From the human T2T-CHM13v2.0 reference genome, Homo sapiens: DNA of 64,000 nucleotides. Location: assembly GCF_009914755.1 (NCBI RefSeq), contig NC_060926.1; one strand, given 5' to 3'. The position numbers and the translations under genes were made by a program. Positions 21,591 to 54,017 of the stretch are shown here, piece after piece (position 1 is the stretch's first letter; each line of letters begins with the position of its first letter). The notes beneath the pieces are model-generated. The model was not told the origin of the DNA. It searched no databases and saw only the letters and a list, made by a program, of their open reading frames with translations.

Positions 21591-22191
21591 TGAAAGTGCT
21601 TCAAAATGTATAAAGCTCTGCAAATAGGACATTCTAGTGTTTGGTTGTTGGCTGAACATAGGTGGTGAGATTACCAACTCCCTTTTAAGATTTTAAGCTA
21701 CCAGGAGCAAACTAGCAAGAATGATCAGAATGTCCAGTGTGCGTACACTCTGACCTCAGCACTGATCTGTTGGTCCTTGTAGACAGGATGGGTGGGAAAG
21801 CCTGGTAGGGGCTATAATGCTGGAGGTGGGGACCCTCAAAAAACAGCAGGGTCCAGGCCTGTCTGGCATGAGGGGTAAAAGAAATGAATATGGAGTCCAC
21901 CTCCCCGTAACGTGAAAGGATGGGCAACTAGACCACACAGTGTGGCTGGGATGTGGCTGGGTTAGGGGGGCTGCCATTCCAGCTGTGGTCTCACTCTCAC
22001 TTTCCCCACTCCGGGAATTATCAGTGGAAGGAAAACAAGACAGAAGCCAGTCTTCCATCAGCCAAGAGTTGTGCTCCCCTCATCCCCACCCCATGTTTTG
22101 GTCCCACCTCCCTCTGTTTGGAGGCTCTGGCCAAGTTCAACCCCCACCCATCTTGCCTCAAGACAAACTCAGTGTTTGCATGAGAGTCTAC

Positions 22192-22197
22192 TTTAAT
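22192..22197 (-). terminator. RESP18: RESP18 polyadenylation signal ATTAAA
   Basis: About 85 nt downstream of the last-exon stops; conserved at the same position in the paralogue (45434-45439). Confidence 0.75.
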
Positions 22198-22280
22198 GAT
22201 TCAAATCTGGGTCATCCAAGAACTGCTCCTCTGAAGGGCAATGGGAAGGGTGCTGGGGCAGGGAGGCTTCACATGAGGTC

Positions 22281-22331
22281 TCAATCAGCCACAGGGTTGC
22301 GGCCCACAGTAGGAAGTGGCCCAGAGAAGCC
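22281..22331 (-). CDS. RESP18: RESP18 last coding exon, read in two frames: GFSGPLPTVGRNPVAD* (phase 0, stop 22283-22281) or (R)LLWATSYCGPQPCG* (phase 1, stop 22287-22285)
   Basis: Acceptor ttcttgttttag; frame depends on inclusion of the 85-nt exon 23692-23776. Confidence 0.88.
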   Translation of the reverse strand, partial: GFSGPLPTVGRNPVAD

Positions 22332-23691
22332 CTAAAACAAGAAGAAACAAGGGAGCTAGAGTCAGGATGTGAGACAGTGGCTCCTCCCTCATCTGCCCTC
22401 CTTCCACAAATACTGTAGTAACAGCCTGATTTGAGTAACCCTTCAGCATGGTGACAGCTCACCAACTGAGAGCCTGTCCCCTTGGGTCTCACATGTAGCC
22501 CTGTCTCTCCATGGTTTGCCCTTAAGCTTAGGTCTGGAGAAGAATGGCAGCTTCTTGTTTGCATTATTCCTGGGAGCACCAGGGCAACCAGTCCCCCACA
22601 GGTAGGTCTCTGTCACTTCTGTCACTGAGCTCTGATTATGTTGCCCCAGCAACCAATCCAGGCTTAGGAAGCCCAGCTGCCACATTATGGAAGTAGGAAT
22701 CTGTTTCCTTGGAGAGCATGAGGAGCTGGAACCCCCTGTGGTGCAGGTTGCCTTTAGATGGAGGGTGCAGCCAGCCGGGGGTGCCCTGCTTCACTGCCAC
22801 CACCCAAATTCAAGCCACCTCGGTCTCCCTGGACCAGGATGAGCCCCTCCTTACAGACCTCTCAGTTTTCACTTTTGCTCTCCTTACAGTTCATTCCCCA
22901 ACATCACCAGGGTGGCCTTTTAAAATCATATCACGTTGTGACATTCCTTTCCTTAAAATTTCCCAGTTAAATTCCCACTGCACTTAGAATGAAATTCAAA
23001 CCTTTTGCTATGATCTGTGAGCCCCTGTGTGGTCAGTCCTGGGCCTAATTCTCCACCCTCATCTTTGACCACTGACTTTTCTGTCTGTTCCTTAACATGA
23101 CATGGTATGGGTGTCTCAGGACATTCGTAGTGGCAATGCTGTCTGCCTCAGATGCCCTTCCTTTACATCTTCCTCTGGTTGCCACCTTATAATTTAGGTC
23201 TTAGTCCAAAAAAAAAAAAACCTCTTTTTTCAGTGTGGAGGAGTCTGATGTTTGGAATGGCCAAATCCCACTGCAGTTCTTGAGTGGAAGGGCAGGGACT
23301 ATGCAGGGGGAAAGAGCTGGAAATCAGGAGACCTGGGTCCAGTCTTGGCTCTGCCACAAACCCATGGTGTTGCCTTGAGTATGTCCCATGGCCTGGGCCC
23401 CAATTTCTCATCTATAAAGATGGATGGGAGTACTAGATGGGCGGTTTCCATTCTGGATTCTGAAGAGTTCAAAGATCCCAAGGAGATGTCTCAGAGCCTT
23501 GCCTGGGTGACTTGCCCAGGCCATAGAGTAGAGCAAGGGGGAGGCTGAATGTGAGGGTCTCTGAGCTGCACCTCCCATTCATCAAGGGAGTGTTGCTATC
23601 ATGTGCTATATACAAGGGCATATATGGCAAAAAGGACGTTTAATTTTGAAAACTCTGCTGTTTCAATGCCTATTTTAAACTCAATACTTAC

Positions 23692-23776
23692 GCATGATCT
23701 TATAGATAATTTCTTCCTTAGAGGGTCCCGGCGCCTGCATCATGTCCAGCCCCCCATATGAACACCTATAGGTAAT
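23692..23776 (-). CDS. RESP18: RESP18 alternative 85-nt exon ITYRCSYGGLDMMQAPGPSKEEIIYKIM(R)
   Basis: Acceptor ctctcag, strong donor gtaagta; open after exon 23931-24020; with it the long model totals 687 nt = 228 aa. Confidence 0.75.
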
Positions 23777-23930
23777 CTGAGAGATACAGGAAATTAGAAG
23801 TACCTTTGATTAGGAATGGAAAAATCTTTTCTGCAGCGATCTGCCCTCACCTCAATGCCCATTCCCTTCTTCCTATCTGCCTCCCTCATTTAAACAGGTC
23901 CAACCTCCCTAGAAAAAGTGAGCCCCTCAC

Positions 23931-24020
23931 CTTGACAGGGTTGGCCACCTCTTGTTTCAGGGCCTTAGAAACCACTTCGGAGGTAAAGCACTGATCCCTG
24001 TTCACCTTGGCCAGGGGGCT
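23931..24020 (-). CDS. RESP18: RESP18 exon [30 protein letters not shown]
   Basis: 90 nt, phase 0-0; acceptor ctcacag, donor gtgagg. Confidence 0.92.
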
Positions 24021-24130
24021 CTGTGAGGAGGGAAACCAGGAGTCAAGGAGGAGGCAGAAAAGGGTGAGAGGGCCCCACAGGAAAAGCAATTGGATACAAA
24101 GTCAGGGATTCACAATTCTTGAGAAGATAC

Positions 24131-24172
24131 GTGAGTCTCACTGGGGAATAGGAGTTGAAGTTTCTCCTCTTG
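24131..24172 (-). CDS. RESP18: RESP18 alternative mini-exon [14 protein letters not shown]
   Basis: Acceptor tcttctag; 42 nt to a weak donor gtatct; stronger gtgag donor at 24141; resembles the QEEKLQLL segment I recall from RESP18 proteins. Confidence 0.6.
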
Positions 24173-24404
24173 CTAGAAGAGACAGGGAATGACAAATTGG
24201 ACCTAGGCTTGCCACACCCACCTCCCCTCCCTTTGCAGATATCACTAATGGATCATGAAATTCTTCTCTGCTGATTCCAAACAGGACCTCTGAATTCTCA
24301 CAGTGCTCCTGGCAACTTCTACCTGCAGTTTTAGCACACATTCCTTCCCTGTTCCGTCTGTCTGCCAGAATGCTTGGAATGACCACAGGCCTCATGCACC
24401 TCAC

Positions 24405-24532
24405 CTCAGTGGTTTTAGTGGGGAAAAGTGCCTTCCCATCCTTCAGGCATGGTTCTTGGGGATGCAGTCTGCTGGCATGCTCCATCTTTTGGATCATTGC
24501 ATCCTGGGTGATGTCATCCTTCCAGAACAGAC
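24405..24532 (-). CDS. RESP18: RESP18 exon (G)[42 protein letters not shown]
   Basis: 128 nt; acceptor cctgcag, donor gtgagg; core RESP18 domain motif W-x-DD-x-TQ. Confidence 0.95.
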
Positions 24533-24799
24533 CTGCAGGATGAAAGGATGGGGGGTGAGTTGACACCTGAGACACTCGGATCCACTCCAGGGATCAGAGT
24601 AACCTTTCTCTCAAGTATATATTAGATTACATTTTACAGAGAATTAAACAAGATGATGTATTAAAGTTGCTTAGCATAGTGCCTAGCATATAATATTCAA
24701 ATTAGGATTATGATTACAGTCTCTTTGCTGGTTCATTTGATGCTATTGTGAGGATTAAATGAGGTTAGGAATATAAAGAGTGCTTAGAAAATGCTAAGG

Positions 24800-24990
24800 C
24801 AGTGATTATCAAACTTTAGCATGTGCATCAGAATCTCCTGCAAGGTCTGTTAAAATACAGACTGCTGTTTCCCACCCCTAGGGCTTCTGATGCAGTAGGT
24901 CTGTGGTGAAGTTCAAAAATTCCCATTTCTAACAAGTTCCCTGGCGAGGTTGATGCTGCCAGTCCAGGGGTGCACTTTGAGAACTACTGC
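24800..24990. mobile_element. MER5A-like hAT DNA transposon fossil
   Basis: cagtgattatcaaacttt...catcagaatc...actttgagaactactg termini; a similar element lies at about 9117-9290. Confidence 0.7.
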
Positions 24991-25538
24991 TCTAAGGCAC
25001 TATGCACATATTAGTGTTAGCAGCAGTAATATGAACTCAAGGAAGATTTCCTAGCTGACTGTCTCCTCCCCAACATTCATGAAACTCTGCTGTGAGACAG
25101 GGTCAGCCACATGTTGCCAATGGACTCTCCACTCCCTTTCATTCCTCCCATCTGTTTGTCATACAATTTCCTACTCAGAGGCTGAAGTGTGTGTTTTCCT
25201 GTCTGAGAACTTGAAGAGTCCTGGCTTTGGAAAAGCTCATATAGTGCTGGGGTTGGGGGGAGACTAGTCTCAAGGAGTTGGATGCTGGCCGTTTTCAGTT
25301 TTGTTTTTTTTTTTCCCTAGAAGCCTTTACTGGGCTCTTCCAAGGTGTTCTAGTGCAAATAGTCCACCCATCCAGATCCCACTCCTACTCCTGTCTCATC
25401 CCCATGGGGGTAAATGTGACAAAGTTTTAAGTAGAGACATTTGGGGAACAGAAAGCCTACCCTCAGGTCGGATAGCCCCTCTTCCCCCCTCCCCATCTCT
25501 AACCAGGCCCCAACCTCTGTTCTCCAGCTTTTACTTAC

Positions 25539-25643
25539 CTTGGGGTATAATCTGCTGGAGCACAACCTGTAAATGCTGGAAGACTGGGGTGGCAAATCCT
25601 TGGAGGGGCCAAAGCTGCCCCACTCCTACTTGGTCCTGACCAT
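25539..25643 (-). CDS. RESP18: RESP18 exon (D)[34 protein letters not shown](G), homologue of PTPRN exon 3
   Basis: 105 nt, phase 1-1; acceptor cccttag, donor gtaagt. Confidence 0.95.
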
Positions 25644-25851
25644 CTAAGGGCAAAATAGTGGTGTCAGCAAGGAACCTGGCCAGAGCCTTCCACATCCCAG
25701 TTGAAGAGAAGCAGCTTCCTTGTACTGTCACTCCTGGACCCCTGACCTCTGTTCCCACTACCAGGCCGCTTTGTCCACTTCAAGTCTTCTTTAATTTTTC
25801 CCTTCCTCCATCACCACTTGCCATATTCTTCAACCCCTGGGCCTCATTCAC

Positions 25852-25894
25852 TCTTGGTACCAACTTACAGATAACCAGATTTACAAAGAGCAGC
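25852..25894 (-). pseudogene. Dead RESP18 pseudo-exon homologous to PTPRN exon 2
   Basis: Keeps ctacag|GCTG acceptor and gtgaatgagg donor, but is 43 nt rather than 51 and reads GC TGC TCT TTG TAA. Confidence 0.8.
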
Positions 25895-26510
25895 CTGTAG
25901 AAGTTCAGATGCGCAGAGGCTCAGAAAGCTGAGCACATGGGAATAGTAATCAGGTGGGTAGGTGGGGCATGGGGAAACAGGTGAGCTTCATCTTAGGGAA
26001 GTCATTGAAGCCTGGAAGTGTTAGGGAGGAGGCCTGGAATCATTAGAAAAGGTATTGGTTTGTTTAGGGTTTGAGGCTCTGGATCCTTTTCCTGAAGCCC
26101 ACAGTTTGCCCAACTGTGCATGAGAGGAAGGACAGGGGTTGGGGAAGAGAACCCCTAATGCTATGCACACCTTCCTTCTTCCAGATCAGTGAGATAGGGC
26201 TGGAGGACAGTCTGTTTTTTGCTATAGTGTAGTTACCATGAGCCATTCTGGACAGGTCTTTAGAAAAGGGAATTCTCCTACCCAGTCAAATGGATGTCTA
26301 ATAATTTCCTGGGGGTAAGCGTGACAAAGTTTTAAGTAGAGACATTTGGGGATGAGAAAGCCTCCTTAAGGAAGTAGTGGAACCTCCAACACCCTGAGGA
26401 GAAGGGAAAGAGCTTCGGGAAGGGGAGCTGATTCTCTGAGGCAGCGTTCCCAGGACTGGTGGGAAGGAGTGGTGACCCGCTCGGGCTCGGCGTGGACCCG
26501 GAGCGCGCCT

Positions 26511-26531
26511 GGCGCTGTCCGTGGTGCTGAG
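26511..26531 (-). promoter_or_regulatory. REST/NRSF RE1 element in the RESP18 intron after the signal-peptide exon
   Basis: Minus strand CTCAGCACCACGGACAGCGCC; same intron as the PTPRN RE1. Confidence 0.92.
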
Positions 26532-26777
26532 AGGTGGGGAGGCCAGCGTGGCGGCGGCGCTGGGCGGAATGTGGGCGAGACATCTCCGCAAGGCTTGGCG
26601 GTCCTTCCCCACGGCCCTCATCCTCTCATTGCCACCAGGCCTCCTCCCACAGCTGTTCCTGAATCCGCTGCATTGGCCTCTAAAACCAAAAATCAGGGAG
26701 AGGGGGCGACAGACTAGGAGTTTGCGCTCTCTTCCCCATGCGCTCTGCGCAGGAGTTCTCGAGTGTGCGCAGTCTGG

Positions 26778-26790
26778 CACGTGAGTCAGC
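26778..26790. promoter_or_regulatory. Overlapping E-box (CACGTG) and AP-1/MARE (TGAGTCAGC)
   Basis: cacgtgagtcagc; positional homologue of the PTPRN intron-1 motifs. Confidence 0.55.
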
Positions 26791-27291
26791 GCGGGGTCTA
26801 CGCGGATTGGTGCGGGGGAAGGGGAGAAGGATGGTCCCATTCCCCCTCCATCCTGCTTTCCCTCAGCGGTCCCCTTATTGGAAACCGGATCACAGCACGA
26901 GGAAGCCCTGGCTCGTCTCCTGGCCCAGCCTTCTCCCTGGAGCCAAGACCCCGATACCCGCAGCCCTGGTCAACTCTTTTTCTGGCCTTTCTTGCTTCTC
27001 CTGTGGCCACATAGGCCAGTTTTACCTCTCTCTGTTCATTTGTCTTTCTGACCTCTTCCCAAATCCCCAATTTTCACCTGAACCCACTTCTCGTGAGTCC
27101 AGACCCCATATGCCCAGCCTATCTGAAGCCTATGCCTCTTTCCGCTAGACGCTGTCTACCTTTTTCTCTTCTCACGTCCTTAAGCACATTCTTTTACTTC
27201 CAAGTTTCCTAGCCTTGAGGCCCCCTGCAGACCCCCACTTCTCAGGATCGCTTTCTTGGCCCTGCCCGCACCCCCCAGGGTTCCTCCTGAC

Positions 27292-27506
27292 CGTGGGCAC
27301 TAGTGTCGCTGCAGCCCCCCGGGCAGCTGTTCAGCAGCAGGAAGCAGACAAGCAGCTGGAGCCCCTCGGAGCTCCCAGGCCACAGTGGGTGCTGTATCCT
27401 CCCAGGCTCGGCGCGCTCACTCCCCGGCCAAGTCTCAGTGAAGGTAGCGGCCACGGCCGAGGGGCTGAGCGGGGCTGCAGCTTCCCACCAGCCCGCGACT
27501 CCGAAT
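27292..27506 (-). CDS. RESP18: RESP18 signal-peptide exon ...[40 protein letters not shown]; codon homologous to the family start is ATA (27397-27395)
   Basis: Donor gtcagg at 27291 as in PTPRN exon 1; open frame back to acceptor aacag at 27507; 215 nt. Confidence 0.88.
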
Positions 27507-27586
27507 CTGTTTAACCCTCCTCGGCAGTTCAGCCAATCGTGAGCGGGCCCTGCCCCTGCGGTCGCCTCCCCAGCTCCTTCCCCTAC

Positions 27587-27603
27587 CGCCTCCCCACCCT
27601 CAT
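27587..27603 (-). CDS. RESP18: Putative upstream RESP18 micro coding exon MRVGR(R) of the 228-aa model
   Basis: ATG at 27603-27601, 17 nt, donor gtaggg; an 80-nt intron joins it in frame to 27506. Confidence 0.55.
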
Positions 27604-29339
27604 CTCTTGGAATTCCTGACCCGGCTCCTTTCGGGCATTAGCTGGGTCCCAAGAACCACCGCCTGTACTCCCAGTCCTAAGGCTGCAGAAACGGATGGCA
27701 CGTAAGATACGGGTGCAAGTTGTACCTACTCAGGTTTGTTGTGAGAATCAAATATGAACAGCGATGAAACAGTAGGCACTCAAGGAATTTAGTTTATTTT
27801 ATTATCCTTGACACTCTTTACTCTGGCCCACTTAAAACCCTTTAGAAATCATATAGGTTCGATCTGCTATATATATATATATAATATTATATATTATATA
27901 TTATATATGGCACATCCATCCACTTTACTCCACATCCACTGCCATCGCCTTGGTCCAAACCACTGCACACTGTACTTTTTTTTTTTTTTTTTTTTGAGAC
28001 AGTCTTGCAATTTCAGATCACCACAACCTCCGCTCGACCTCTACTCAACCTCAGGCTCCAGAGTAGCTGGGACTACAGGTGCACACTACCATGCCCAGCC
28101 AATTTTATTTATTTATTTATTTATTTTTGTAGAGACAGGGTTTTGCCATGTTTCCCAGGCTGATCTCAAACTCCTAGGCTCAAGCAATCCTCCCACCTTG
28201 GCCCCCCAAAGTGTTGGCATTACTGGCATGAGCCACCATGCCAGGCCTTGGACACTGTACTCTTTTAAATTGAGTTGTTGTAGTAACTAACTAGCTAACT
28301 GACCTCTTGCTTTCACTCTTGTGTACTTACAAGCTAGTTTGTGAGCTTTCTAACTCTTAGACTGGCATTTAAATTTTTTTTCATTAAGCTTAAAACATTT
28401 ATTAAACTGGGCATGGTGGCTCATGCTTGTAATCTCAGCACTTTGGGAGGTCGAGATAGTGGATTACTTAAACCTAAGGGTTTGTATAGTGAACATTTGG
28501 GGTTGATACATTACAAAGGATCTGAATTATATTATTATCTTTAAAGGGTAATAGTTTGAGTTTGTTCTGGCAGGCAATTAAATTTTTGGTAAAAAGTCTT
28601 GATCCTGTGGCAGTCTGGTTAGGGAAGGAGTACTTCATCCTATTCTCAATTCTAGCCTGTATCTCTTAGTCCTGGGATATGGTGCTTATGGCTAAGGTGT
28701 GGTCCTTTTTGGATTTCAACATAACCCAAAGTCATTTACCAAAACTCTCTATTTTACGGGTCCTGAACTCCAAACTCAGTCACCCTAACACTGTGACAGC
28801 TGCCAAAATCTCTGTTCAGATATTTGACTTTTTCACTAGGTTCCTTGAAATCTCACCCTGCGCAAGTGCCATTTAGAAGATAGCTAAGAATTGGAGGGGA
28901 GTTAGGATGCAGATTTTGAGTTCCTCTCTCTGTAATTTATTCATTTTCTAAATTTCTTCCTCAATTTCCAGATGCTCTGGCATCTCTGTACTCCAAAAGC
29001 TGTTTCCTTAGTAAGACTGCCAGTTGCTGACAGAGCTGTTTCCCTGTGTACTGCAGTGAACTCTGAAGTATCTTCAGAGGAAAAGCCTATACATGTATAA
29101 GTCACTTGGTGGACTTCCTTTTTTTGAGGACTATACTCCCTGTAGGTTTCTAACTCTTGATCAGTCTCCATGCTTTCATACAGTTATTTTTATATTTTGC
29201 CTAGAGTATATACCCAATGTTAGGAGGATCCGACACAAGTTTCTGTCTTGTCACGCCAAAAACTAGAGGTTTATCTGGTTGTCACTGATTATGTACTGGA
29301 CATGCTATTTTAAAATAAATTTATAGCAATAATTTGAGG

Positions 29340-30830
29340 CCTAAGAGCAAATGAACGTGAACCTGCTTTGTGAAGTATAATGCTCCTGGAAAAAGGGAAA
29401 TATTGGTCTTTGGGTCGGCTGAACAAAGGTGAGTGTGCTCCTCTCTGTATTTTAAGATTTTAAACCACCAGGAGAATGGCTATCAAAATGATAAATGTAC
29501 AGGAGCATTGATGCTGCTCTTCTTTTTACTGTTCATTGGAAGGGATTCTAATGCTAAGAGTAATACCCTCAGAAGACTTAGCAGGTTTTCAGGCCTATTG
29601 AACCAGGGGTTCGTAGGAAGGAACTTTCTTTCCCAAGAAGAAAGAAAGACTACCATAAAGTGTAGCTGGGGAGAGTGGGCGAAGGAAGATTGTAATTCAG
29701 CTGTGGTCCTACTCTGTCTTACATTCATGTTACAAATGATGTCCGGAAGGAGAAGGAGATCAGAAGCCTAGGCTCCATGTGTACCAAGGAGTTTTACTAT
29801 TTCAATCCCCACCCCAAATGTCCTCTCTGTTCTGGCTTTACATATTTTAATTCAGAAGCTCTGGCTGAGGCCCACTGTCTTACTTGCAGACAAGCCTGCT
29901 TAAAGAATTTTCATGAAAACTCACTTTAAAAAATCCAGTAGCAAGTTGTCCTAAAACTGCCTCTCTGCAGGGTAATGGGGCTGGGAGAGGAGGAAGGCCT
30001 CAATCTGTGACAAAGTTTTGCTCAGAGAAGGAAACAGTTCAAAGAAGCTCTAAAATGGGAGGAAAATCGGATTTGGAATTTGTGTGTATATGTGCCAGGG
30101 GCTCCCCCTCCACAGTGTAAGCTCCCCTCACCCCACTATATAAGGGCCTCTAGTTGCAGTCTTGACTTGGGCAAGTCTTGAGGAATAGTGACTCAGCAAC
30201 CACCTGACAGCTAGCCTCCCCTTGGCTCCGACGTCATGATCTTCTCTCTCTCCCTGATTTTCCCTTAGGTACAGAGCTAGTCAAGGACGCTGAGCCTGCA
30301 GAAGAAAGGCAGATTCTTGTTTGCATAATTGGTAGCACCATGACAACCAGTTCTTATTGTGAGGATCAGTCATTTAGTGCTGATGATGCCACTCCAGCGA
30401 CCAATCCAGGTAGGAGAAGTGTAGCTGCCATGGTGACAGGAATCAAGAAGCAGTTTCCTTGGAAGCATAAGGATCTAGAGCCCCCTGAGGTTCAGGCTGC
30501 CTGTTGGGGCAGTGCAGGGCCAGATAGAGGTGCTAGGCTCCTGTGATTGCCTCGCCCAGGCCACCACAGTCTTTCTTGGACCAAGACAACACTTCCTAAC
30601 TGATCTATTGATTCCACTCTTTCCCCTATCAATATATTCTCAAGTAGCCTTTTAAAATTATATATCACATAATTCTATTCCCTTCCTTAAAATCCCCAGT
30701 GATTTTTCCTCTGTACTTTGCATAAGATCTGGACGCTCTACTGTTGCCTACAGAGCTCTGTCTAGGCAATTTTGGACTTATTTCTCCAATCCCATCTCCT
30801 ATCACTGGTTGTTCTGTTTGTTTTTCTAAA
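29340..30830 (-). pseudogene. Orphan 3' fragment of a RESP18-like gene (last intron, last exon 30000-30049, 3' flank)
   Basis: Acceptor cccattttag then SFFELFPSLS-(1-nt deletion)-NFVTD* aligns with GFSGPLPTVGRNPVAD* and DVFEPFPTLSHNLVAD*; flanks align with 21580-23050 and 44850-46280; polyA signal decayed to TTTAAA. Confidence 0.82.
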
Positions 30831-31915
30831 GTGCCATTTGAGAAATGAAAAAATATAATAACTAAAATAAAAACTCACTGGATGAGCTCCAAGCGGGATA
30901 GAAATGACAGAAGAGTCAGTCAACTTGAAGATGGGTCAACAGAAATAATCCAATCAGAACAAGAGAGAGAAAAAACATTGGGAAAAAAAAAGTTAACAGA
31001 ACTTCAGGGACCTGTAGGGCAATATCAAAAGTCCAAAATTAATGTCATTGGAATTCCAGATTAAGAGGATAAAGTGCAGTACACACAAAAATTTTGAAGA
31101 AATAATTTCTGAAAAATTCCCAAATGTGTGAAAAGACATAAGCCTAAAGATTAAAGAAGCTTAAGGAATGCCAAATAGAATAAACTCAAAGAAGTCTATA
31201 CTCTTGACACATTATAATCAAAAATTCTAAACACTGAAACAAAGAAAAAAATCTTAAACAACACACGACTAAAGAACAATGGGATTCAGAAAACTGAATT
31301 TTTCATTATAAACCATGTGGGCCAGAAGGAAGTGAAATAACATCTTTAAAGTTGTGAGAGAAATGAGCTGCCAACTGAGGATTCTATATCCAGCAAAAAT
31401 ATACTTTAAGAATGAAAGTGAAATAAGGATATTCTCAGATGAAGAAAAACTAAGATAATTAATTGCTAGTAGAAACATCAGGAATGAAGAAGAGGAACAG
31501 AAATGACAAGTGTCTGAATAAATATCATAGACTATTCTTCCCCTTGTGAGTTATGTAAAATATGTTTGGTTAAAAGCAAAAATTCCAGCCTGGGCAACAT
31601 GGCAAAACCCTGTCTCTACCAAAAAAAACCCAAAAAACAAAAACACAAAAACAAAAAATTAGCCAGGCATGGTGTCACACACATGTAGTCCTACTTAGGA
31701 GGCTGAGGAAGGAGGATTATCTGAGCCCAGGGAGGTCAAGGCTGCAGTGAGCCATGATCGCACTACTGCATTCCAGCCTAGGCAACAGAGTGAGACCCTG
31801 TCTCAATAAATAAATAAATAAATAATAAGGTTGGGTACAGTGGCTCACACCTGTAATCCCAGTACTTTGAGAGGCTGAAGTAGGAGAATCACTTGAGCTC
31901 AGGAGTTGGAGACTA

Positions 31916-32221
<306 letters not shown>

Positions 32222-33020
32222 CTATTCAGAATGCTGAGGCAGGAAGATCACTTGAGCCCAGGAGATAGAGATTGCAGTGAGCTATGATCACACTACTGCA
32301 CTCCAGCCTGGGCAACCTGTCAAAAAAAAAAAGCATAAATTATAACATTGATAGGATTTTCAATGTATGTAAATGTAATTGATTCTAATAGACAACTACA
32401 GCATAAATGGGGAAGGTAAAGAGATCTGTATGCTGGTAAGATTTCTATATTACATTTAAAACGGCAAAATAGTGATTAAAAGTAGACTTGGAAAAATTAA
32501 GTATGTACACTGTAATCCCTAGAGCATCCACTGAAAAAATTATACAAAGAAATGTAGTAAAAAATTACAACAGATACATTAAAATAGAATATTTAAAAGT
32601 TTTCCAATAATCTAAAGAAGGAAAGGGGAGGAAAGGAACAACACAACAAAAAAAAGAGGAAACAAACAGAAAAGAAACAATAAAATGGTAGATGTAAATC
32701 CAAAGATACCAATAATTGTACATTGTCTAAACATATAGATTTAAAGACAAATGACCAGAATGGCTTTAAAAAATAACCCAACAACATGTTATCTACAAGA
32801 AATTCTCTTTAAATATAACTATGTATGTAGATAGGTTACAGGTAAACAAATGAGAAAAAGTATGATGTGTTAACATGAATCAAATAAAAACTGGAGTAGC
32901 TATATTAATGTTAGATTGACTTCAGCACAAAGAAAAATACCAGGGATAAAGAGGAACATTACATAATAAAAGGGTCAAGTCATCAAGAAGACATAGAACT
33001 CTTGATGTGTATGTACCTAA

Positions 33021-33245
<225 letters not shown>

Positions 33246-33268
33246 TGACTGCCACCATGCCCAGCTAA

Positions 33269-33493
<225 letters not shown>

Positions 33494-34307
33494 TAATCAC
33501 ACTACCAACTAGTAGATTCTAACATTTACAGAACACTCCACCCAACAACAGCAGAGTACACATTCTTTCCAAGTGCAGAATGGAATATACCCACATCCTG
33601 CATCATACCCTGGATCATAAAACAAACTTTACTAAATTTAAAATAATTGAAATTATACAGATTTGTCCTATGACCATAATGCAATTAAACTAAAAATAAA
33701 TAACAAAAAATAACAGGTCTCCAAATACTTGAACATTAAAAACCACACTTCTAAGTAATACACAGGTCAAAAAGGAAGTCTTAAGGAAAATTAGAAAACA
33801 TTTTGAACTGAACAAAAAGGAAAACATCAAATTTTGTGGGATGAAGCTAGAGGAATACTTAGAGCAAAGTTTATGGCATTATATGCTTGTATTGGGAAAG
33901 TCATCTAAAGGAAGAAACTAAAGATAAAAGCATAAACCAATAAAATTGAAAACAGAAAAAGAATCAACCAAACAGAAAGCTGCCTTATTGAACAGGTTGA
34001 TAAAATATTTATCAGTAAGATAAACTTCTAGCAAGACTGACCAAAAAAAGACATAAATTACCATTATCAGGCATGAAAGATATCACAAATTGACCCCATA
34101 GACATTAAAAAGATAATAAAGGAATACTACAAACAACTCTTATGTACATATATTTCACAACTTAGTTGAAATGGACCAATTCCTTAAAAACCACAAACTA
34201 CCAAAACTCATCCAAGATGAAACAGATAACTTAAATGATCTTACAACAAGAAATTGAATTCATGTTAAAACTTCCCCCCAAAGTAGTCTACAGACTAAGA
34301 TGGTTTC

Positions 34308-34909
<602 letters not shown>

Positions 34910-35298
34910 TCATGCCACTGCACTCCAGCCTGGGTGACAGAGACTCCATCTCAAAAAAAAAAAAAAATGCAAAACAGACACAGTTTCATTGGCAAATTCT
35001 ACCCAATATTTCAAGAAGAAATAACACAATCTCTTCCAGAAATTCGGAAAGAATACTTCCCAATTCATTATAGGTACTTACTATTGCCTTGATACCAAAA
35101 TCAGAAAAAGACAATACAAGAATAGAAAATTGTAGGCTGACATCTTTTATGAACACGGGCACAAAACCACTCAAAAAATTAGCAAATTGAATCCAGCAAT
35201 ATATAAAAGGAATCCTGGGAGCATAAGGCGGGTTCAATATTTCAAAATCAATGTAGTCCACTATTTTCAACAGTTTAAGATGAAAAGCCACATGATCA

Positions 35299-35698
<400 letters not shown>

Positions 35699-36136
35699 TC
35701 AGCAAGGCTGAAATAGAAGGGAACTTCAATCTGATAAAAGGGCATCTACAAAAAAGCTACAGCTAATGTCATAGTTAATGATCAAAATACTTCCCCTGGC
35801 TGGTCATGGTGGTTCCTGCCTGTAATCCCAGCACTTTGGGAGGCCGAGGTGGGAAGATCACCTGAGGTCAGGAGTTTGAGACCAGCCTGACCAACATGGT
35901 GAAACTCTGTCTCTACTAAAAATACAAAAATTAGCTGGGCGTGGTGGTGGGCGACTTGTAATCCCAGCTACATGCCAGGTTAGGGCATGAGAATCACTTA
36001 AACCCGGGAGGCAGAGGTTGCAGTGAGCTGAGATCGTGCCACTGCATGCCAGCCTGGACGACAGAGCAAGACTCTGTCTCAAAAAAAAAAAAAAAAAAAA
36101 AACTCCTTCCCCTAAGAGCAGAAAACAAAGGAAGTA

Positions 36137-36475
36137 CAGTTTTCCCTCAGTATCTATAGGAGATTGGTTCCAGGACCTCCCGTCAAGGTCAAAATCCTCA
36201 GATGCTGAAGTCCCTGGTATAAAACGGTGTAGTATTTAACATATAACTTATGCACATCTTTCTGTATACTTTAAATCATCTCTAGATTGCTTATAATACT
36301 AATACAATATATGTGGTATGTAAATCATTGCTATATTGTATTGTGTAAGTAATAATGACAAGAAAAAGGATCTGTACATGTTCAGCACAGATGCAGTTTT
36401 TTTTTTTTCAAATATTTTTGATCCATGGTTGGTTGAATCCAAGGATGTGGAACCAGAGAGTGCAGAGGGCTGCAT
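36137..36475. mobile_element. MER2 (Tigger-derived) DNA transposon
   Basis: cagttttccctcagtatctataggagattggttccaggacc...gatgtggaaccagagagtgcagagggctg termini. Confidence 0.75.
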
Positions 36476-37020: not shown

Positions 37021-37176
<156 letters not shown>

Positions 37177-37178
37177 TA

Positions 37179-44174: not shown

Positions 44175-45522
44175 TGATGATTGCCCCTGAGGGTGTTAAG
44201 TCCCAGGCACTTCAGGGCTGTCTGGTGCACAGGTGTGCAAGTTCTCCTGGTGTTCCAGAAAACCCGCAGGACGAGAATCAGAGTGTTTCCAGGTTTCGAG
44301 GTGGGAAGCTGTCAGCACACAGACGTTGTCCACGTGCTTGCTGCAGGTAACCTCAGAGATGGGCCATTGGATATGAGGCAGGGCACCTGCCTGGTCTGCT
44401 GCACAGGTGTTCAATATCTATTGCACAAGTACGTCGTATGTATGTCTTCCTTCCCTGCCTAGCCTTCAATTGCCTTGAGGCAGGAACTATGTATTGCAGA
44501 GGCCAGGCACAGTAAAGCACAAATCTTTACAAATGTGGGTTGCATAAAAGAAAGTAAAATGTTTGATGGGGAAAAGTAAAGTGGGTGGTAAGGGTCAACC
44601 TAGCTAATAAAAATAGGTATAAATAAATATGACTAGTTGAGCATCATATTTATCGATGTCCTTACAAGCAAAGCGGCAGGGGAGAGGACATATATTGGTG
44701 GCATCATTGAGCCTGTATACTAAAGGACTCTCTTGTAATTTCTCTGTATTCCATAGTGGAGGGGCTTGATATTTTCCCTTGTGCTCCCACTTATGAGGAT
44801 TGAATGAGCTGACTACCCAATGAACACTGAAAATTAACAAAACAAAATAAATGAGCTGAGTGTGCAGGTGCTTTGAGAAACATAAAACTTGAAGCATGGG
44901 ACCTGCTGGAGCTTGGTTGGGTTGAACATTGGTGGCTAGACTCCCCTTTCCCAGGGGAAAATTGACCATAGGTACCAAAAGTTAAATGTGCATAGCCTTT
45001 GGCTGTGGAATTGTTTGTGGATTCTTGGGGTGGGGCTGGTATGACTGCCGTTTAGGGGACCCTAATGCTGAACAGGTACCATGGACCTCTGAAGGCAGAG
45101 CAGGGCCCAGACCTGCTTGACCTGGGGTCTGGAGGGGGTGGATTTCCTTCTATCAGGGGAAAGAAGACCAGTAAGACACAACTGAAGGCTGCGTGGGGAT
45201 GGCTGCCTTGCCACCCTGCCTTTCACCTGCTTTAGAAATGACCCATGGAAGGAAAAAGGCATCTGAAACAAGGCCTTCGGACAACCAGGGGCTGGCTGTC
45301 TGCACCCACTCCCCAGGCTTCCCTGCATTTGGCTCCCACCTCTCCCAGCTCTCACCTGGGAGGCTCTGGCTTGGTCCCCCGGCCACCAATTCTGCCTCCA
45401 GACAAGTCTGCTGAGTTTTTTTTGAAAATTGACTTTAATAATCCAGATTTGGTTCAGCCTGAAATTGTCCTTCCTGAGAGCATCAGGGGAAGTATGAGGA
45501 ATGGGAAGCTTCCCATGTGGCC

Positions 45523-45573
45523 TTAATCAGCTACGAGGTTGTGACTCAGAGTAGGGAATGGCTCAAAGACGTC
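45523..45573 (-). pseudogene. Paralogue last exon: DVFEPFPTLSHNLVAD*, open
   Basis: 51 nt, acceptor ttcttcccattttag; stop at the same position as RESP18 ...NPVAD*. Confidence 0.9.
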
Positions 45574-47762
45574 CTAAAATGGGAAGAAACAAGATTTTCA
45601 GTTAATGCACTCAGGCAGTGGTTGCCACTCCCCTCCCTCTCCCCTTCCCCCACCAAGTGCAGAACCAATCTCAATAGCAGTCTCAAGTCCCTTCCCTTGT
45701 TCCCCATCTCTAATCCCGTCTCCTTCCCAGGATTTTCCAAGAGACACATTAGGGGTTTCTCAGGTTGCCTGAGCCTGAGGCATAGCAGCTCCTTGTTTGC
45801 ATACTTGACAGAACCATGGCAACCAGTCCCCATCATGGGGTCAGTCACAAGACTAATGATGTGGCCCAGCAGACAATCCAGGCAAAGGAGCCCTGCTGCC
45901 ATGGTGATGGGGGGCGGGGACCACCAGTTTCCTTGAAGGGCTGAGGGGCTGGAGCACCTCTGAGATACAGGTTGCCCTAATGGAGCCCATCTAGAAGTTT
46001 CCCAGATCCACTGCCACGATCATAGTCCCAGGTCCCAGGATCCCACCTGGACAACCTGGTTGCCCCAAACAGGTCTACCTGTTTCCACTCTTGTCCATTT
46101 CAAAATCCATTTTCCAACAGCATCAGTGTGTCTTTATAAAATGCTTATCATATTGTCCTACTCTCTTCCTTAAAAATCCTCCAATGCCTTCCCACTACAC
46201 TTTGAATAACACCCGACCCCCTGTCTATGGACTATAAGCTCCAAGTAGTCATGGGCCTATTTTCCAAGCTCATCTGCTGTCACAGGACTGTGTCTGTTCC
46301 CCCAACAAGCCCTGGAATCTCATCTAACAGCAGACGTATTTGAAAGCCTCTTTGCCTTGGAGACTCTTCCTCCAGATCTCCCCCGGGCTGCCTCCTTGTC
46401 ATTTAGGTCTAAGTTTAAATGTCACCTCCTGAGGCCCTACTTAGCCTAAGGTGTGTGAAACAACCCAACCTTTACTGGGGTCGCTGAGAGGAAGGGTAGG
46501 GGCTGTGCAGGGGGACGGCTGGGAGTCAGGATACAGGGGCTAGTCCTGGCTCCACACTTGTCCAGGCTGGACCTGAGCTTCTTATCTATAAAGATGGCTG
46601 GAGGTACAAGACGGGTAGTTTTCTATTTGAGCTCCAAAGGGCTCAGTGGTCCCAAGGAGATGCCTGAGAGCCTTGCCCAGGTGACTTAGTCAACACCACA
46701 GAGATAAGCAAGGGGGTTGGAGGGCTGATGTGAGAGACTCTGGGCCCTCCTCTCTAACTCAGGGAGAGAAGTGCCCCCCACACGTACATACACATGCACA
46801 TATATGTGTATACAGCATATGTATATGTAAGGGTGGGTAAGGTTAGGATTGGGGTCATGGCACACTTGGAATTCTCAGAAAAACAGCCCATATGTTTTTG
46901 TTGGGGGCGGGGTTGTGTTTTTTGTTTTTTGAGACAGGGTCTCACTCTGTCACCCAGGCTGGAGTGCAGTGGTGCAATCATAGCTCACAATAACCTTGAA
47001 CTCTTGAGTTCAAGCTAATCTTCTTGCCTTAGCCTCCTGAGTAGCTATGACTACAGGTGTGTGCCACCACACTTTTAAATTTTTGTAGAGACAGGGATCT
47101 TGTTATGTCACCCAGGCTGGTCTCGAACTCCCGGCCCTGAGTGATCCTCCCAATGTGCTGGGATTACAGGCATATGAACCACCACGACCAACCCACAGAG
47201 AGCCTATATGTTTTTTAAAAACATTGGAAAACCTCTGAAGCAGATTTCTGCAGACCCTTCAATTTCTGTGCACATGATTGATTGTACAGGACCAAGCCAT
47301 CGGAAGCCCCAGTCCCTGCATCCTGAGTTGCGGCAATCTACGAAAGGGAGACTCTGAGAGACAGAGAAAGTGGGGGCGCCCTCCAGTGGGGAAATGAAGA
47401 ATTTTCCTTCCATCCAGAACTGCTGACTGGCCTTTATTACATTGCCTCTAATTCTCACAGCAGCCAGGGAGGATGGCCATTATGACCACTCCACCGATGT
47501 GGAAGGAGGGCTTGTAGAGCTTCAGTAAGGTCATGACTGGGAAGCAGCAGTGCCAGGACTGGCCTGGGTCTGTCTGTGTGGAAAGCTGTGTTCCTTCCCA
47601 TCCATCAGGCCCATGCTTCCAGAAGATTCTCCATGAGGCTCTGCCCTCAGTGAAGCCCTGTCAGTCCTCATGCTGCCAATGTCAATCCCCTCCATCACTC
47701 TGCCTCCCTCTTGAAATAGCCCTTGCTGGGCTCAGGCTTCCTGAACAAGGCCAGGCCCTTAC

Positions 47763-47864
47763 CTGGAGCAGGGCCTTGGTGTGGCTGGTCACCTCTTGGT
47801 TCAGGACCTCTGAAACCGCTTCAGATTTAAAGCATTGCTCCCTGCTCACCCTGGTCATGGGGCT
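47763..47864 (-). pseudogene. Paralogue exon 5: SPMTRVSREQCFKSEAVSEVLNQEVTSHTKALLQ, open
   Basis: 102 nt, phase 0-0; acceptor cccatcag, donor gtaagg; aligns with RESP18 [25 protein letters not shown]. Confidence 0.9.
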
Positions 47865-48250
47865 CTGATGGGAGGGGAGCCAGGAGCCAAGAGTGAGGAG
47901 AAAATGGTGAACAGGCCCAGAGGAAAAGAGAAGGGGCCGAAGTGAAGGATTTCAAAATCTCTGAGGGAAACTCACTTTAGGGGACAAGAGTCTCCTTGTG
48001 CTTGCTCCTAGAAAACCAAGATTAAGCAGGGATAACAAGTGGGAACTGTACTTTCCAGCCCCTTCCCTCTGCAGACATCACTAATGGATCGTGGATTCCT
48101 TCTGGTGGAAATCAGATGGGAGCTCTTATTGTTCCATTCCCTGAGCTCCTGATGGCTCCTACCTGCAGCCCTGATAACTCATGCCCTTCCCAGCTCCTCT
48201 GTCTACCGGCAGGTGCAGTGCGGACCAACCATAGGCCCAACACACCTCAC

Positions 48251-48378
48251 CCTGGTGACTCTGGTGGGAAAGGCTGCCTGTCCGCTCCTCAGATGGGCCT
48301 CTGGGGCATGGAGCCAGGGCGTGTGCTCTGTCTGCTGGGTCCTCACACCTTGAGTGATGTCATCCTTCCAGAACAATC
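48251..48378 (-). pseudogene. Paralogue exon 4: [42 protein letters not shown], open
   Basis: 128 nt as in RESP18; LFWKDDITQ identical; acceptor ctgcag, donor gtgagg. Confidence 0.93.
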
Positions 48379-49759
48379 CTGCAGAGTGAAAGGATGGGAT
48401 GAATTGACACTTGGGGCACTCTGATTGGCCCATCCCAGAAACAAAAGTGTGATTAGAATTTTTCCTTTCCCCAAAATGCACAGGTACCACAATGCAGAGG
48501 GCCAGTGGAGGGGTCCGGAGACTGACTGGGGTACAGGAGTTTGCCTTCTGCCCACCGCCATGGCTTAAATCCTTGCTCTTGCTAGCTCTATGGCCATGAG
48601 AAACAGTTAAACTTGCTGAAGCTATTTTCTCGCTCATGAAGCGACGAACTTCATAGCATTAAGAGAATGAAAGGAGATAGTGCACACACATTTCCTAGCT
48701 TATTGTTTGGCAAGCAATAAGTGATCAAATGAGAACTGTATTTTACTTTTATTTTTAGCTACACCTGCTAGAAAGGGACAAATAGGAATTTTTAAATGAT
48801 GCTGCTGTGAGAATCAAATAAGGTTGAAGATAGAAAGTGTGCTTCCAGGCCAGGCTTGGTGGCTTATGCCTGTAATCCCAGCACTTTGGGAGGCTGGGGC
48901 GGGTAGATCACTTGAGGTCAGGAGATCGAGACCAGCCTGGCCAACATGATAAAACCCTATCTCTACTAAAAATACAAAAGTTAGCCCGGTGTGGTTGTGC
49001 ATGCCTGTAGTCGTAGCTGCTTGGGAGGGTGAGGTATGAGAATCACTTGAACCCGGGAAGCGGAGGTTGCAGTGAGCCAAGATAGTGCCACTGCACTCCA
49101 GCCTGGGTGACAGAGCGAGACCCTGTCTCAAAAAAAAAGAGTACTTCTAGAACCCTAGGACATTACACATTGTATACTATGATTATTAGTAGTAATTTGA
49201 ACTCAAAGCGGATCTCCCTTCTGAAGCCTGAAGCCACACACTCTGCTTTCAGGGAAGGGTCAGATACTTTTCCCCAGGAAAAATATCCTTCCACCCTCCA
49301 CTCTGGCCTTTCATGTCTTCCACTTGTCATACTCTCTGAACTGCCCACCTCCTTAATTCAGAGTCTGAAGTATGTGTGTGGGGGTGGGAGGGACCTGGTT
49401 CTGGCTGAGGACTGCAAGATTCCTAGCTCTGGAGCAGTCAGACAGCACCAGGGGTGGTGAGCCAGGCCCGAGGAGATAGATGCTGGCCTCTTCTGGGGAC
49501 TTCCAGTGGCCTCTGCTGTGTTCCTCTAGAGTCCACGTGGGAACGACTCCCCAGCTTAGGTTGCACCATGACTTCTGTCTTGCCCCATCTCTAGCAGAGA
49601 CTGGGCAGGTGAGGCTCCAGAGGCGGTATGATGAGAAAGTTTCAGGCAGGGAATTTTAAGGGAGGAGGTTTTAATGTCAAGTTGGAGATTCCCTCTATAG
49701 TATCTACCCCTATATTTGACCAAACCCAGTCCCTTTCCTCCAGCCCTCCCAGGTCTCAC

Positions 49760-49863
49760 CTTGAGGCACCGGCTGCCGAGCACACCTTGCTAGTATCGGA
49801 AGACCACGTGGATGCTGTCTTCGAGGGGCGTGGCCTGCAGTACTCCCACCTGGGTCTGCCCCT
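49760..49863 (-). pseudogene. Paralogue exon 3: GQTQVGVLQATPLEDSIHVVFRY*QGVL-(frameshift)-QPVPQG
   Basis: 104 nt (RESP18 105, PTPRN 114); TAG at 49792-49790 and a 1-nt deletion; acceptor cccttag, donor gtgaga. Confidence 0.88.
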
Positions 49864-50045
49864 CTAAGGGAATGAGAATGAAATGAGTAGGTACCTGGGC
49901 CAAAAGCCTTCAAAAGGCAGCATCCTCTCCATTGTCACTCCCATATCCCCACGTCTCCCTTCCTCTGCCGGTCTCCTCCCACTTCCGAGCTATCTATCCT
50001 CTCTCCCTCCCTGGCCACCCTCTTCATATTCTGGGTCTCATGCAC

Positions 50046-50096
50046 TCTTGGTACAGACTTCTAGGTAAGAACAGAGTCTTCAGGCAAAGAGGCAGG
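50046..50096 (-). pseudogene. Paralogue exon 2: (P)CLFA*RLCSYLEVCTK with a premature TGA at 50082-50080
   Basis: 51 nt like PTPRN exon 2 (CLFDRRLCSHLEVCIQ); all three Cys kept; acceptor ccacag, donor gtgcat. Confidence 0.9.
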
Positions 50097-50454
50097 CTGT
50101 GGAGGGACACTTGAACAGAGTCTCAGATGGCTACAAAAACTGAATGGACAGACAGGTGGGCAGGCTAGATAATGGGGGAAGTTCAGTTGCTTCCTGGGAG
50201 GAGTTCTGGAATCCTTGGAAGACTACAGCATGGAACCTAGCTTCAGACAGGGCTGGCGAGTCCAGATCATTTTCCTGGAAGCCACGGTATACCCAACTCA
50301 CAATGAGGGGATGACCTTTCTATGATACAGACCCTCCTCCTGGATACGGATCATCTCCATCCAGGCAGATGGGGCCAGTTGGAAGAGAAGCCAGGCTTTT
50401 CCCATCCTAATTTTTCTCCTCCTCCAGTTCACAAGTAGATCCTAATAATGATGC

Positions 50455-51950
<1,496 letters not shown>

Positions 51951-52051
51951 TAACTGGCCAGGCATGGTGGCTCATGCCTGTAATCCCAGCATTTTGGGAG
52001 GCCGAGGCGGGCAGATCACCTGAGGTCAGGAGTTTGAGACCAGCCTGATCA

Positions 52052-52354
<303 letters not shown>

Positions 52355-52453
52355 TTATCTTTGTACCATTGTGCTATTACTGGCTTACTCTTCAAGTTGA
52401 TGATTCATGCTTTTTATTTATGTGAAATTATTTTAAATTTATTATTTATTTAG

Positions 52454-52654
<201 letters not shown>

Positions 52655-52859
52655 TAACTCCTGACCTCAAGTGATCCACCCGCCTTGGTCTCCCAAAGTG
52701 CTGTGATTACAGCTGTGAGCCACCGCGCCCAGCCAAGTGAAATTATTTTAAAGGGCAACTTTGCTACTGTAAATGGAAAAAACCGTGTTTCTTGGCGTAA
52801 GTAGAAGCTAATTATAAAATATAAAGACAGACTCCAAAGAAAAAGAAGATATGTGTAGA

Positions 52860-53960: not shown

Positions 53961-53962
53961 GC

Positions 53963-53964
<2 letters not shown>

Positions 53965-54000
<36 letters not shown>

Positions 54001-54017
54001 ACACACACCCACACACC
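53965..54017. repeat. (CA)n microsatellite upstream of the paralogue promoter
   Basis: Visible CA run with cc interruptions. Confidence 0.9.

What the first reader, a model, noticed from the sequence alone, without database searches (positions are those of the whole stretch)
29340..30830. A fourth family remnant: orphan RESP18-like last exon and flanks between RESP18 and the paralogue
30000-30049 (minus strand) after acceptor cccattttag reads SFFELFPSLS-[1-nt deletion]-NFVTD*, matching both other last exons. The 3' region (cagacaagcctgct...actttaaaaaatccag, about 29887-29938) matches 22140-22210 and 45400-45450, with the polyA signal decayed. The last-intron block gcagattcttgtttgcataattggtagcaccatgacaaccag (about 30309-30350) matches 22547-22592 and 45786-45827. 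The downstream flank ggctgaacaaaggt...ttttaagattttaaaccaccaggag (about 29417-29475) matches 21650-21710. Homology stops at the L1 at about 30840. The locus was therefore a tandem array of at least three RESP18-type genes plus PTPRN.
Basis: seen in the sequence. Interest (0 to 1): 0.75.

Follow-up and report, generated by a model that had tools for sequence, protein, structure and literature searches.

The report
RESP18 is a PTPRN–DNPEP fusion gene
The stray exon is a broken copy of the last exon of the neighbouring peptidase gene DNPEP, and tracing it shows that the hormone-granule protein RESP18 is built from the front of PTPRN and the back of DNPEP, likely joined by a tandem duplication in early placental mammals and then likely multiplied to three copies.

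Summary
Window 29357-30837 is a 1.5-kb paralogue (about 60% identity) of the 3' ends of RESP18 and of the RESP18-like pseudogene at 45-54 kb. It has a frameshifted last exon, a decayed polyA signal and an L1 at its 5' edge.

The interpretation needs correcting. A fourth copy of this exon lies 5 kb beyond the window and is DNPEP's own last coding exon. RESP18 and its paralogue share one junction (about 24320 and 48155) between PTPRN intron 4 and a DNPEP intron. About the last third of RESP18 comes from DNPEP's 40-nt, 102-nt and terminal exons. DNPEP's 168-nt exon is destroyed in the same way in all three copies.

The orphan holds only DNPEP-derived and repeat sequence, with nothing from PTPRN. 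It belongs to the fusion lineage, but whether it was ever a whole gene is open (about 60:40).

The orphan itself is an ordinary dead fragment. The fusion origin of RESP18 (Sdic-like, probably stem-placental) is the result of interest. It was not found in ten literature searches, but three key RESP18 papers could not be read.

The parts
29357..29880 (-). Orphan (copy C): downstream flank, paralogous to 21590-22170 and 44860-45400
   Evidence: the near-flank profile finds only A, B and C, not DNPEP's flank
29881..29999 (-). Orphan 3' UTR homologue; polyA signal ATTAAA decayed to TTTAAA at 29925-29930
30000..30049 (-). Orphan terminal-exon remnant, homologous to DNPEP's last coding exon (L003:5045-5095); 37 of 50 bases identical to DNPEP; 1-nt deletion
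   Evidence: (count read from the printed alignment)
30050..30457 (-). Orphan copy of DNPEP's last intron; 5' donor dead (GT to GA, shared with RESP18 and the paralogue)
30458..30535 (-). 3' part of DNPEP's 168-nt second-last exon; its 5' half and acceptor are missing, as in RESP18 and the paralogue
30545..30837 (+). L2-like repeat at the same place in all three copies (family name recalled, no library)
   Evidence: 57-63% among the copies, 59-66% to DNPEP's intronic copy over 101-132 columns, 44-52% to an unrelated copy near 55.1 kb
30840..36130 (+). Old LINE-1 interrupted by Alus, which truncates the orphan; no RESP18, PTPRN or DNPEP exon remnants between 30840 and 39900
22175..24320 (-). 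DNPEP-derived half of RESP18 (copy A): 40-nt exon homologue at about 24131-24172, 102-nt exon homologue at 23931-24020 (12-nt deletion), dead 168-nt exon near 22710-22785, terminal exon 22175-22331
   Evidence: (23929-24321 vs L004:2118-2518, E 2e-23)
24305..24325 (-). Fusion junction in RESP18 between PTPRN intron 4 and the DNPEP intron before its 40-nt exon (position uncertain by about 20 nt)
24325..28500 (-). PTPRN-derived half of RESP18 (exons 1-4 and promoter)
45423..48150 (-). DNPEP-derived half of paralogue B (terminal exon ending at 45573, 102-nt exon 47763-47864, damaged 40-nt exon about 47976-48007)
   Evidence: (47737-48090 vs L004:2083-2448, E 3e-24)
48150..54800 (-). PTPRN-derived half of paralogue B, with the same junction as RESP18; stop codon in the exon-3 homologue; overlaps lncRNA LOC107985835
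   Evidence: hub annotation

Best explanation
The orphan is a non-coding copy of DNPEP's 3' end that carries the same lesions as RESP18 and its paralogue, both of which are PTPRN-front/DNPEP-back fusions, and it is likely the remnant of a third copy of that fusion gene. Steps: (1, inferred from shown anatomy) DNPEP lies head-to-tail upstream of PTPRN on the minus strand. A tandem duplication with one break in the DNPEP intron before its last four coding exons and the other in PTPRN intron 4 placed PTPRN's promoter and exons 1-4 in front of DNPEP's last exons and polyA site. (2, shown) The 168-nt DNPEP exon lost its acceptor and donor; it is a multiple of three, so the 40-nt, 102-nt and terminal exons stay in DNPEP's frame and give RESP18 residues 116-174. 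(3, inferred) Unequal crossing-over made three copies before placental orders split. (4, state shown, cause inferred) The middle copy lost everything 5' of the last intron next to an old L1, then gained a frameshift and lost its polyA signal. It would make no protein today.
For: DNPEP identity of the source: L003:5608-5775 is 56 of 56 identical to PDB 4DYO aspartyl aminopeptidase, E 9e-32, and hits Pfam Peptidase_M18. Rabbit RESP18 residues 116-160 hit aspartyl aminopeptidases as the top 3 of 177,635 PDB sequences (E 0.001-0.002; profile E 2e-4); hhalign gives 57% over 30 columns, E 1.6e-7. Exons and introns align at DNA level, with splice sites in register. PTPRN homology stops and DNPEP homology starts at the same point in A and B. 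The orphan groups with the fusion copies. It shares the GT-to-GA donor loss, the loss of the 5' half of the 168-nt exon with an L2-like element abutting, and a flank block not found by DNPEP. Identities are 58-61% among A, B and C against 52-54% to DNPEP, with 107 of 836 columns A=B=C against DNPEP. Age: afrotherian RESP18 carries the RESP18-specific 12-nt deletion, B-type proteins occur in carnivores, horseshoe bats and colugo, and no named non-placental hit appeared.
Against: No PTPRN-derived or upstream DNPEP-exon remnant of the orphan survives, so a whole third gene is not shown. None of 138 fetched proteins has the orphan's FELFP-type end. Branching order among A, B and C is unresolved (AU p 0.30, 0.61, 0.48). 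The orphan's terminal exon is closer to DNPEP (37 of 50) than human RESP18's is (32 of 51), which suits an early-branching or independent copy. With four taxa, DNPEP's long branch cannot be split from a shared A/B/C stem. DNPEP's downstream flank shows little homology to the copies' far flanks (one 251-column hit, possibly a repeat). No non-human genomic DNA was examined.
Confidence: 0.75

Rival explanations
1. The orphan was never a gene: a tandem duplication copied only the 3' end of one fusion gene (most simply B, which lies upstream), leaving a promoterless fragment from the start. This shares the fusion origin and differs only in steps 3-4.
For: It has no 5' exons or promoter; 30840-39900 holds only L1, Alu and similar repeats. 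A break inside the L2-like element would give exactly this edge.
Against: Such a copy should carry B's far downstream flank (39.6-44.8 kb, shared by A and B), which is absent next to the orphan. The orphan aligns more continuously with RESP18 than with B (scores 155 vs 75). In the first 29 nt of its exon, 3 of 4 changes against DNPEP are synonymous (alignment), a weak hint of past coding constraint.
Confidence: 0.33
2. The orphan is an independent duplicate of DNPEP's 3' end, or was later converted by DNPEP, and does not descend from the fusion gene.
For: It keeps DNPEP's residues (ELFPSL) where RESP18 and B share changes (EP-PT); its exon is 74% identical to DNPEP.
Against: It shares the donor mutation, the exon truncation with the L2-like junction and the near flank with A and B. 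Overall it is closer to them (59-61%) than to DNPEP (54%).
Confidence: 0.1
3. The shared segments are a known interspersed repeat.
For: The last roughly 290 bp is L2-like. The genome search is insensitive: it missed the DNPEP copy.
Against: The rest matches coding exons and the last intron of DNPEP. A genome search with 29340-30600 found 3 places, all in this locus. Rfam found no match.
Confidence: 0.01
4. The fragment has been kept because it now acts as an enhancer for RESP18, 2-3 kb from its start. This is not exclusive of the best explanation.
For: A RefSeq enhancer at 29491-30690 covers almost the whole fragment (hub annotation). There is one AP-1-type site at 30189 and a CRE-like site near 30229 (seen in the sequence); neither is present at the aligned place in RESP18.
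Against: AP-1 sites in the window are at chance level (11 found, 11.0 expected). The orphan's branch is as long as RESP18's (0.32 each), so no constraint is visible. The assay and cell type behind the annotation are unknown to me.
Confidence: 0.15

Closest known systems
Drosophila Sdic (AnnX/sw chimera, tandem array)
   Same: A new gene lying between its two parent genes, built from parts of both and present as a tandem array after consecutive segmental duplications (PMC3502208, passage seen).
   Different: Sdic is specific to D. melanogaster, and per that passage only sw exons reach the transcript. RESP18 is probably at least as old as placental mammals and has both parents in its protein (about two thirds PTPRN, one third DNPEP); two of its three human copies are dead.
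RESP18 as a homologue of the PTPRN/IA-2 luminal N-terminus (RESP18 homology domain, Pfam PF14948)
   Same: PTPRN exons 1-4 gave the promoter, signal peptide and homology domain (PMC9900141 passage; bioRxiv 10.1101/521351 passages).
   Different: That account leaves residues 116-174 unexplained, and they are DNPEP's. The Pfam model spans rabbit residues 37-139, so its last 24 or so positions lie in DNPEP-derived sequence. The orphan has no part of the PTPRN-derived domain.
DNPEP, M18 aspartyl aminopeptidase (PDB 4DYO, Pfam PF02127)
   Same: Source of the orphan's exon, intron, UTR and polyA signal, and of RESP18's last three conserved exons.
   Different: Only about 59 residues are kept. The 168-nt exon with the AMHS motif (zinc-ligand histidine, recalled) is destroyed in all copies, so no peptidase activity is expected.
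Unprocessed pseudogene fragment in an old tandem array
   Same: Intron retained, frameshift, lost polyA signal, truncation at an L1.
   Different: Its parent is itself a fusion gene, and it is unannotated.

Membership tests
Chimeric gene from adjacent genes (Sdic type): RESP18 | Lies between its two parent genes, same strand, in the order a tandem duplication predicts | tested here: met
   Order DNPEP > B > C > RESP18 > PTPRN, all on the minus strand (hub annotation)
Chimeric gene from adjacent genes (Sdic type): RESP18 | Exons and introns homologous to both parents with one switch point | tested here: met
Chimeric gene from adjacent genes (Sdic type): RESP18 | Both parts present in one protein | tested here: met
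   Database proteins of many mammals; 56 of 138 fetched proteins end in the DNPEP frame. These are database records, many of them predictions; no transcript data were examined.
Chimeric gene from adjacent genes (Sdic type): RESP18 | Absent in outgroups where the parents are adjacent | tested here: inconclusive
   No named non-placental hit (31 of 31 listed; 120 of 129 listed) or 58 (95 of 95 listed); some rows are unnamed; no outgroup genome was available
RESP18 family (PF14948): orphan | PTPRN-derived signal peptide and RESP18 homology domain exons | tested here: not met
   Profiles of each PTPRN-derived block find only PTPRN, A and B; a genome search with rabbit RESP18 gave 7 matches, none at the orphan
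RESP18 family (PF14948): orphan | RESP18-type 3' end with the lineage's derived lesions | tested here: met
RESP18 family (PF14948): orphan | Intact orthologue in another mammal | tested here: inconclusive
   0 of 138 fetched proteins with an orphan-type end; genomes of other mammals not available
M18 aminopeptidase: RESP18 and copies | Catalytic domain with metal-binding residues | tested here: not met
   Only short C-terminal exons are kept, the 168-nt exon is destroyed, and none of 4 RESP18 proteins has a PF02127 hit
Interspersed repeat | Many dispersed copies or a match to a Dfam family | tested here: inconclusive
   3 matches, all local, but the search is insensitive and no Dfam library was available; the segment is explained by DNPEP except the L2-like 290 bp

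The most novel reading that the evidence does not exclude
RESP18, a conserved neuroendocrine granule protein described as a shortened PTPRN relative, is an undescribed placental-born chimera. A tandem duplication fused PTPRN exons 1-4 to the last exons of the aspartyl aminopeptidase DNPEP, the fusion was amplified to three copies, and about 59 DNPEP residues have been kept in frame under selection ever since as a new secretory-granule tail. A second copy still encodes a protein in carnivores and bats, and the orphan is the fossil of a third.
Probability: 0.6. Interest if true: 0.7.

Novelty: new member of a known kind. Interest (0 to 1): 0.6.

Why it matters
The orphan alone is a routine dead fragment, but it leads to the origin of a real human gene. 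Old mammalian chimeras of two adjacent unrelated genes, with both parents kept in the protein, are uncommon (own knowledge).

RESP18 is listed as prenatal-lethal in mouse (PMC7498332 table) and is studied as an IA-2/PTPRN homologue. Knowing that residues 116-174 come from DNPEP gives a natural boundary for structure-function work, and makes it testable what RESP18 does that the PTPRN domain does not.

It also flags annotation problems. The selected human model reads the last exon out of the conserved frame, the Pfam domain runs across the junction, and LOC107985835 is a transcribed RESP18-like pseudogene.

Tried and rejected
- Four-taxon tree and AU test: A/B/C order unresolved.
- Search for 5' remnants of the orphan by 10 nhmmer profiles and pairwise BLAST: none found.
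- Search for an orphan-type protein in three homologue searches: none.
- AlphaFold2 of RESP18 on 31 sequences: mean pLDDT 50.8, pTM 0.14, too poor to use, so no fold search was run.
- ESM Atlas: best hits 0.77 and 0.75 (interleukins), below the chance level quoted by the tool.
- Rfam over 28400-31000: 0 matches.
- Pfam on five L1-like pieces: nothing above cut-off; PDB matched one of the two pieces tried.
- AP-1 enrichment: none.
- The bacterial promoter scan is irrelevant here.
- The loose local aligner ran across the junction; I took the junction and the printed neighbourhoods instead.
- The L2-like hit near 55.1 kb was considered as a fifth remnant and rejected (44-52% identity, no shared flank).
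- PTPRN as the source of the last exon was rejected: no match in L001 or L002.
- A similar stretch of about 15 nt in both parents at the junction may be microhomology but cannot be shown at this age.

Full report
1. Observation. The described segments are present at the given coordinates. After masking high-copy repeats, 29357-30837 aligns to the RESP18 3' end (copy A, 21590-23103) at 60.7% over 1602 columns, E 1.9e-80. It aligns to the paralogue (copy B, 45360-46298) at 60.4% over 1023 columns, E 3.6e-36. Scores are far above 100 shuffles each (155, 75 and 68 against a maximum of 18). The orphan (copy C) has an intact acceptor, a 50-nt exon remnant with a 1-nt deletion, and TTTAAA where the others have ATTAAA. 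It ends at about 30837 against an A-rich plus-strand element, one piece of which matches LINE-1 ORF2p (E 0.001; a second piece matched nothing). A genome-wide DNA search returned 3 places, all here. It missed the DNPEP copy described below, so it is weak evidence for rarity.

2. What the exon really is. I fetched DNA on both sides of the window. A fourth copy of the last exon and last-intron block lies at L003:4887-5702, about 5 kb past the window and inside the annotated DNPEP span. The exon before it (L003:5608-5775) translates to 56 of 56 residues of PDB 4DYO aspartyl aminopeptidase (E 9e-32) and hits Pfam Peptidase_M18. DNPEP's last four coding exons are 40, 102, 168 and 51 nt, with canonical splice sites; the last reads GFFELFPSLSHNLLVD*. 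The orphan's exon, last intron, UTR and polyA site are therefore DNPEP's.

3. RESP18 is a fusion. Window 23929-24321 (RESP18) and 47737-48090 (B) align to DNPEP's 40-nt and 102-nt exons with their introns (E 2e-23 and 3e-24). The next stretches, 24382-24596 and 48226-48381, align to PTPRN exon 4 (E 2e-10 and 1e-15). The alignments show the switch at the same point in A and B, about 24320 and 48155. At protein level, rabbit RESP18 searched blind against 177,635 PDB sequences returns aspartyl aminopeptidases as its top three hits (residues 116-160, E 0.001-0.002). A six-sequence profile gives E 2e-4, and hhalign gives 57% over 30 columns (E 1.6e-7). The gene order, DNPEP then B, C, RESP18 and PTPRN head-to-tail on the minus strand, is what a tandem duplication across the DNPEP-PTPRN boundary produces (inference). 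The 168-nt exon is dead in all copies, and being a multiple of three its loss keeps DNPEP's frame. Of 138 proteins fetched in three searches (isoforms, fragments and unspliced ORFs included), 56 end in the DNPEP frame, 8 in the alternative PQPCG frame and 74 otherwise. In 31 full-length sequences, which I chose from these for having the tail (so the figure leans upward), mean column conservation is 0.87, 0.75 and 0.84 for the three DNPEP-derived exons against 0.77 and 0.75 for the PTPRN-derived parts.

4. Where the orphan fits. C shares three features with A and B against DNPEP. The donor of the 168-nt exon is GA instead of GT. The 5' half of that exon is gone, and an L2-like element abuts the remnant (family named by eye). 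A near-flank block is found only in the three copies (this one is not polarised). Over 836 gap-free columns, identities are 58-61% among the copies and 52-54% to DNPEP; 107 columns have A=B=C against DNPEP. Against a simple story: the order among A, B and C is unresolved (AU p 0.30-0.61), and C's exon is closer to DNPEP (37 of 50) than human RESP18's is (32 of 51), both counts read from the alignment. No PTPRN-derived block and no upstream DNPEP exon of C is found by 10 profiles or by pairwise BLAST. 30840-39900 reads as L1, Alu and similar repeats, with B's far flank starting near 39650. So C descends from the fusion lineage (about 0.88), and I put 'once a whole gene' at about 60:40 over 'a 3'-end-only duplicate'.

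5. Age. RESP18 proteins from tenrec, sengis and manatee carry the 12-nt deletion specific to copy A. B-type proteins occur in carnivores, horseshoe bats and colugo. So A and B split before the placental orders did (inference). C is as far from A and B as they are from each other (branches 0.32, 0.32 and 0.44), so it is probably as old. No named marsupial, monotreme or non-mammal appeared (31 of 31 rows listed, 120 of 129, 95 of 95; some rows are unnamed). No outgroup genome could be examined.

6. Function. The orphan would make no protein (no 5' part, frameshift, no polyA signal). A RefSeq enhancer covers it, but motif content is at chance level and no constraint is seen, so an enhancer role is a minority reading. 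For RESP18, PTPRN likely supplied neuroendocrine expression, the signal peptide and the granule-targeting domain (routing role per the PMC9900141 passage). DNPEP supplied a non-catalytic tail and a polyA site. What the tail does is untested; the fold prediction was uninformative.

7. Literature. Ten searches were run. RESP18 with 'aspartyl aminopeptidase' gave 0 papers. RESP18 with DNPEP gave 4 papers, seen only as listings, which by title are cytogenetic or association studies. RESP18 with 'chimeric gene' gave 1, a genome-mapping case study, seen as a listing. Passages only were seen of PMC7498332, PMC9900141, PMC11802530 (DNPEP 0 times), bioRxiv 10.1101/521351 (aminopeptidase 0 times), PMC3502208, PMC6457024 and PMC10201709 (aminopeptidase 0 times). 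Supplements of PMC7144826 and PMC13354781 had no RESP18. Three key papers (PMID 31294787, 17951542, 26836020) are not held and were not seen; bioRxiv supplements were not seen. One UniRef cluster of panda RESP18 is labelled 'Aspartyl aminopeptidase' (P0038), so a pipeline has touched the similarity. The claim 'not in print' is limited to these searches.

8. Verdict. The fragment is an ordinary dead copy (about 0.25 on its own). The fusion it reveals is well supported (about 0.95) and is a new member of a known kind, closest to Sdic. Overall interest 0.6.

Noticed in passing
window 45423-53800: The three exons of lncRNA LOC107985835 coincide with exon homologues of paralogue B, which has a stop in its PTPRN-exon-3 homologue and a damaged 40-nt exon; it looks like a transcribed pseudogene.
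   Followed up: partly
P0111, P0112, P0124 (B-type proteins): Jaguarundi, ferret and seal records each give a 124-aa B-type protein that keeps the PTPRN exon-2 homologue and stops inside exon 4, so essentially a free RESP18 homology domain; several are named as PTPRN.
   Followed up: partly
window 27395-27397: The start codon used by other mammals is ATC in human RESP18 (chimpanzee record also reads I there); the RefSeq models use a non-ATG or upstream start.
   Followed up: partly
window 23692-23776 and 22285-22331: The selected human model includes an 85-nt exon that shifts the last exon out of the frame conserved across mammals, and omits the 40-nt exon homologue (about 24131-24172) that another human record uses (P0025).
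   Followed up: partly
P0001, P0117: African wild dog and horseshoe bat records fuse B-type exons to RESP18 exons, either read-through or gene-model merges; they show that B and RESP18 are neighbours in these species too.
   Followed up: no
P0038: A UniRef cluster of giant panda RESP18 is named 'Aspartyl aminopeptidase'.
   Followed up: no
window 16311-21588 and 39648-44860: The RESP18/B duplication unit includes about 5 kb of far downstream flank that the orphan lacks.
   Followed up: partly
window 25405-25467 and 26310-26371: Short near-identical local duplication (89-93%) inside RESP18 introns, much younger than the array.
   Followed up: no
window 57815-58360: A roughly 215-nt period tandem-like repeat at 64% identity inside LOC105373883.
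   Followed up: no
window 29491-30690: The RefSeq enhancer covers nearly the whole orphan; AP-1 site at 30189, CRE-like site near 30229 and TATA-like site near 30137 are seen in the sequence.
   Followed up: partly
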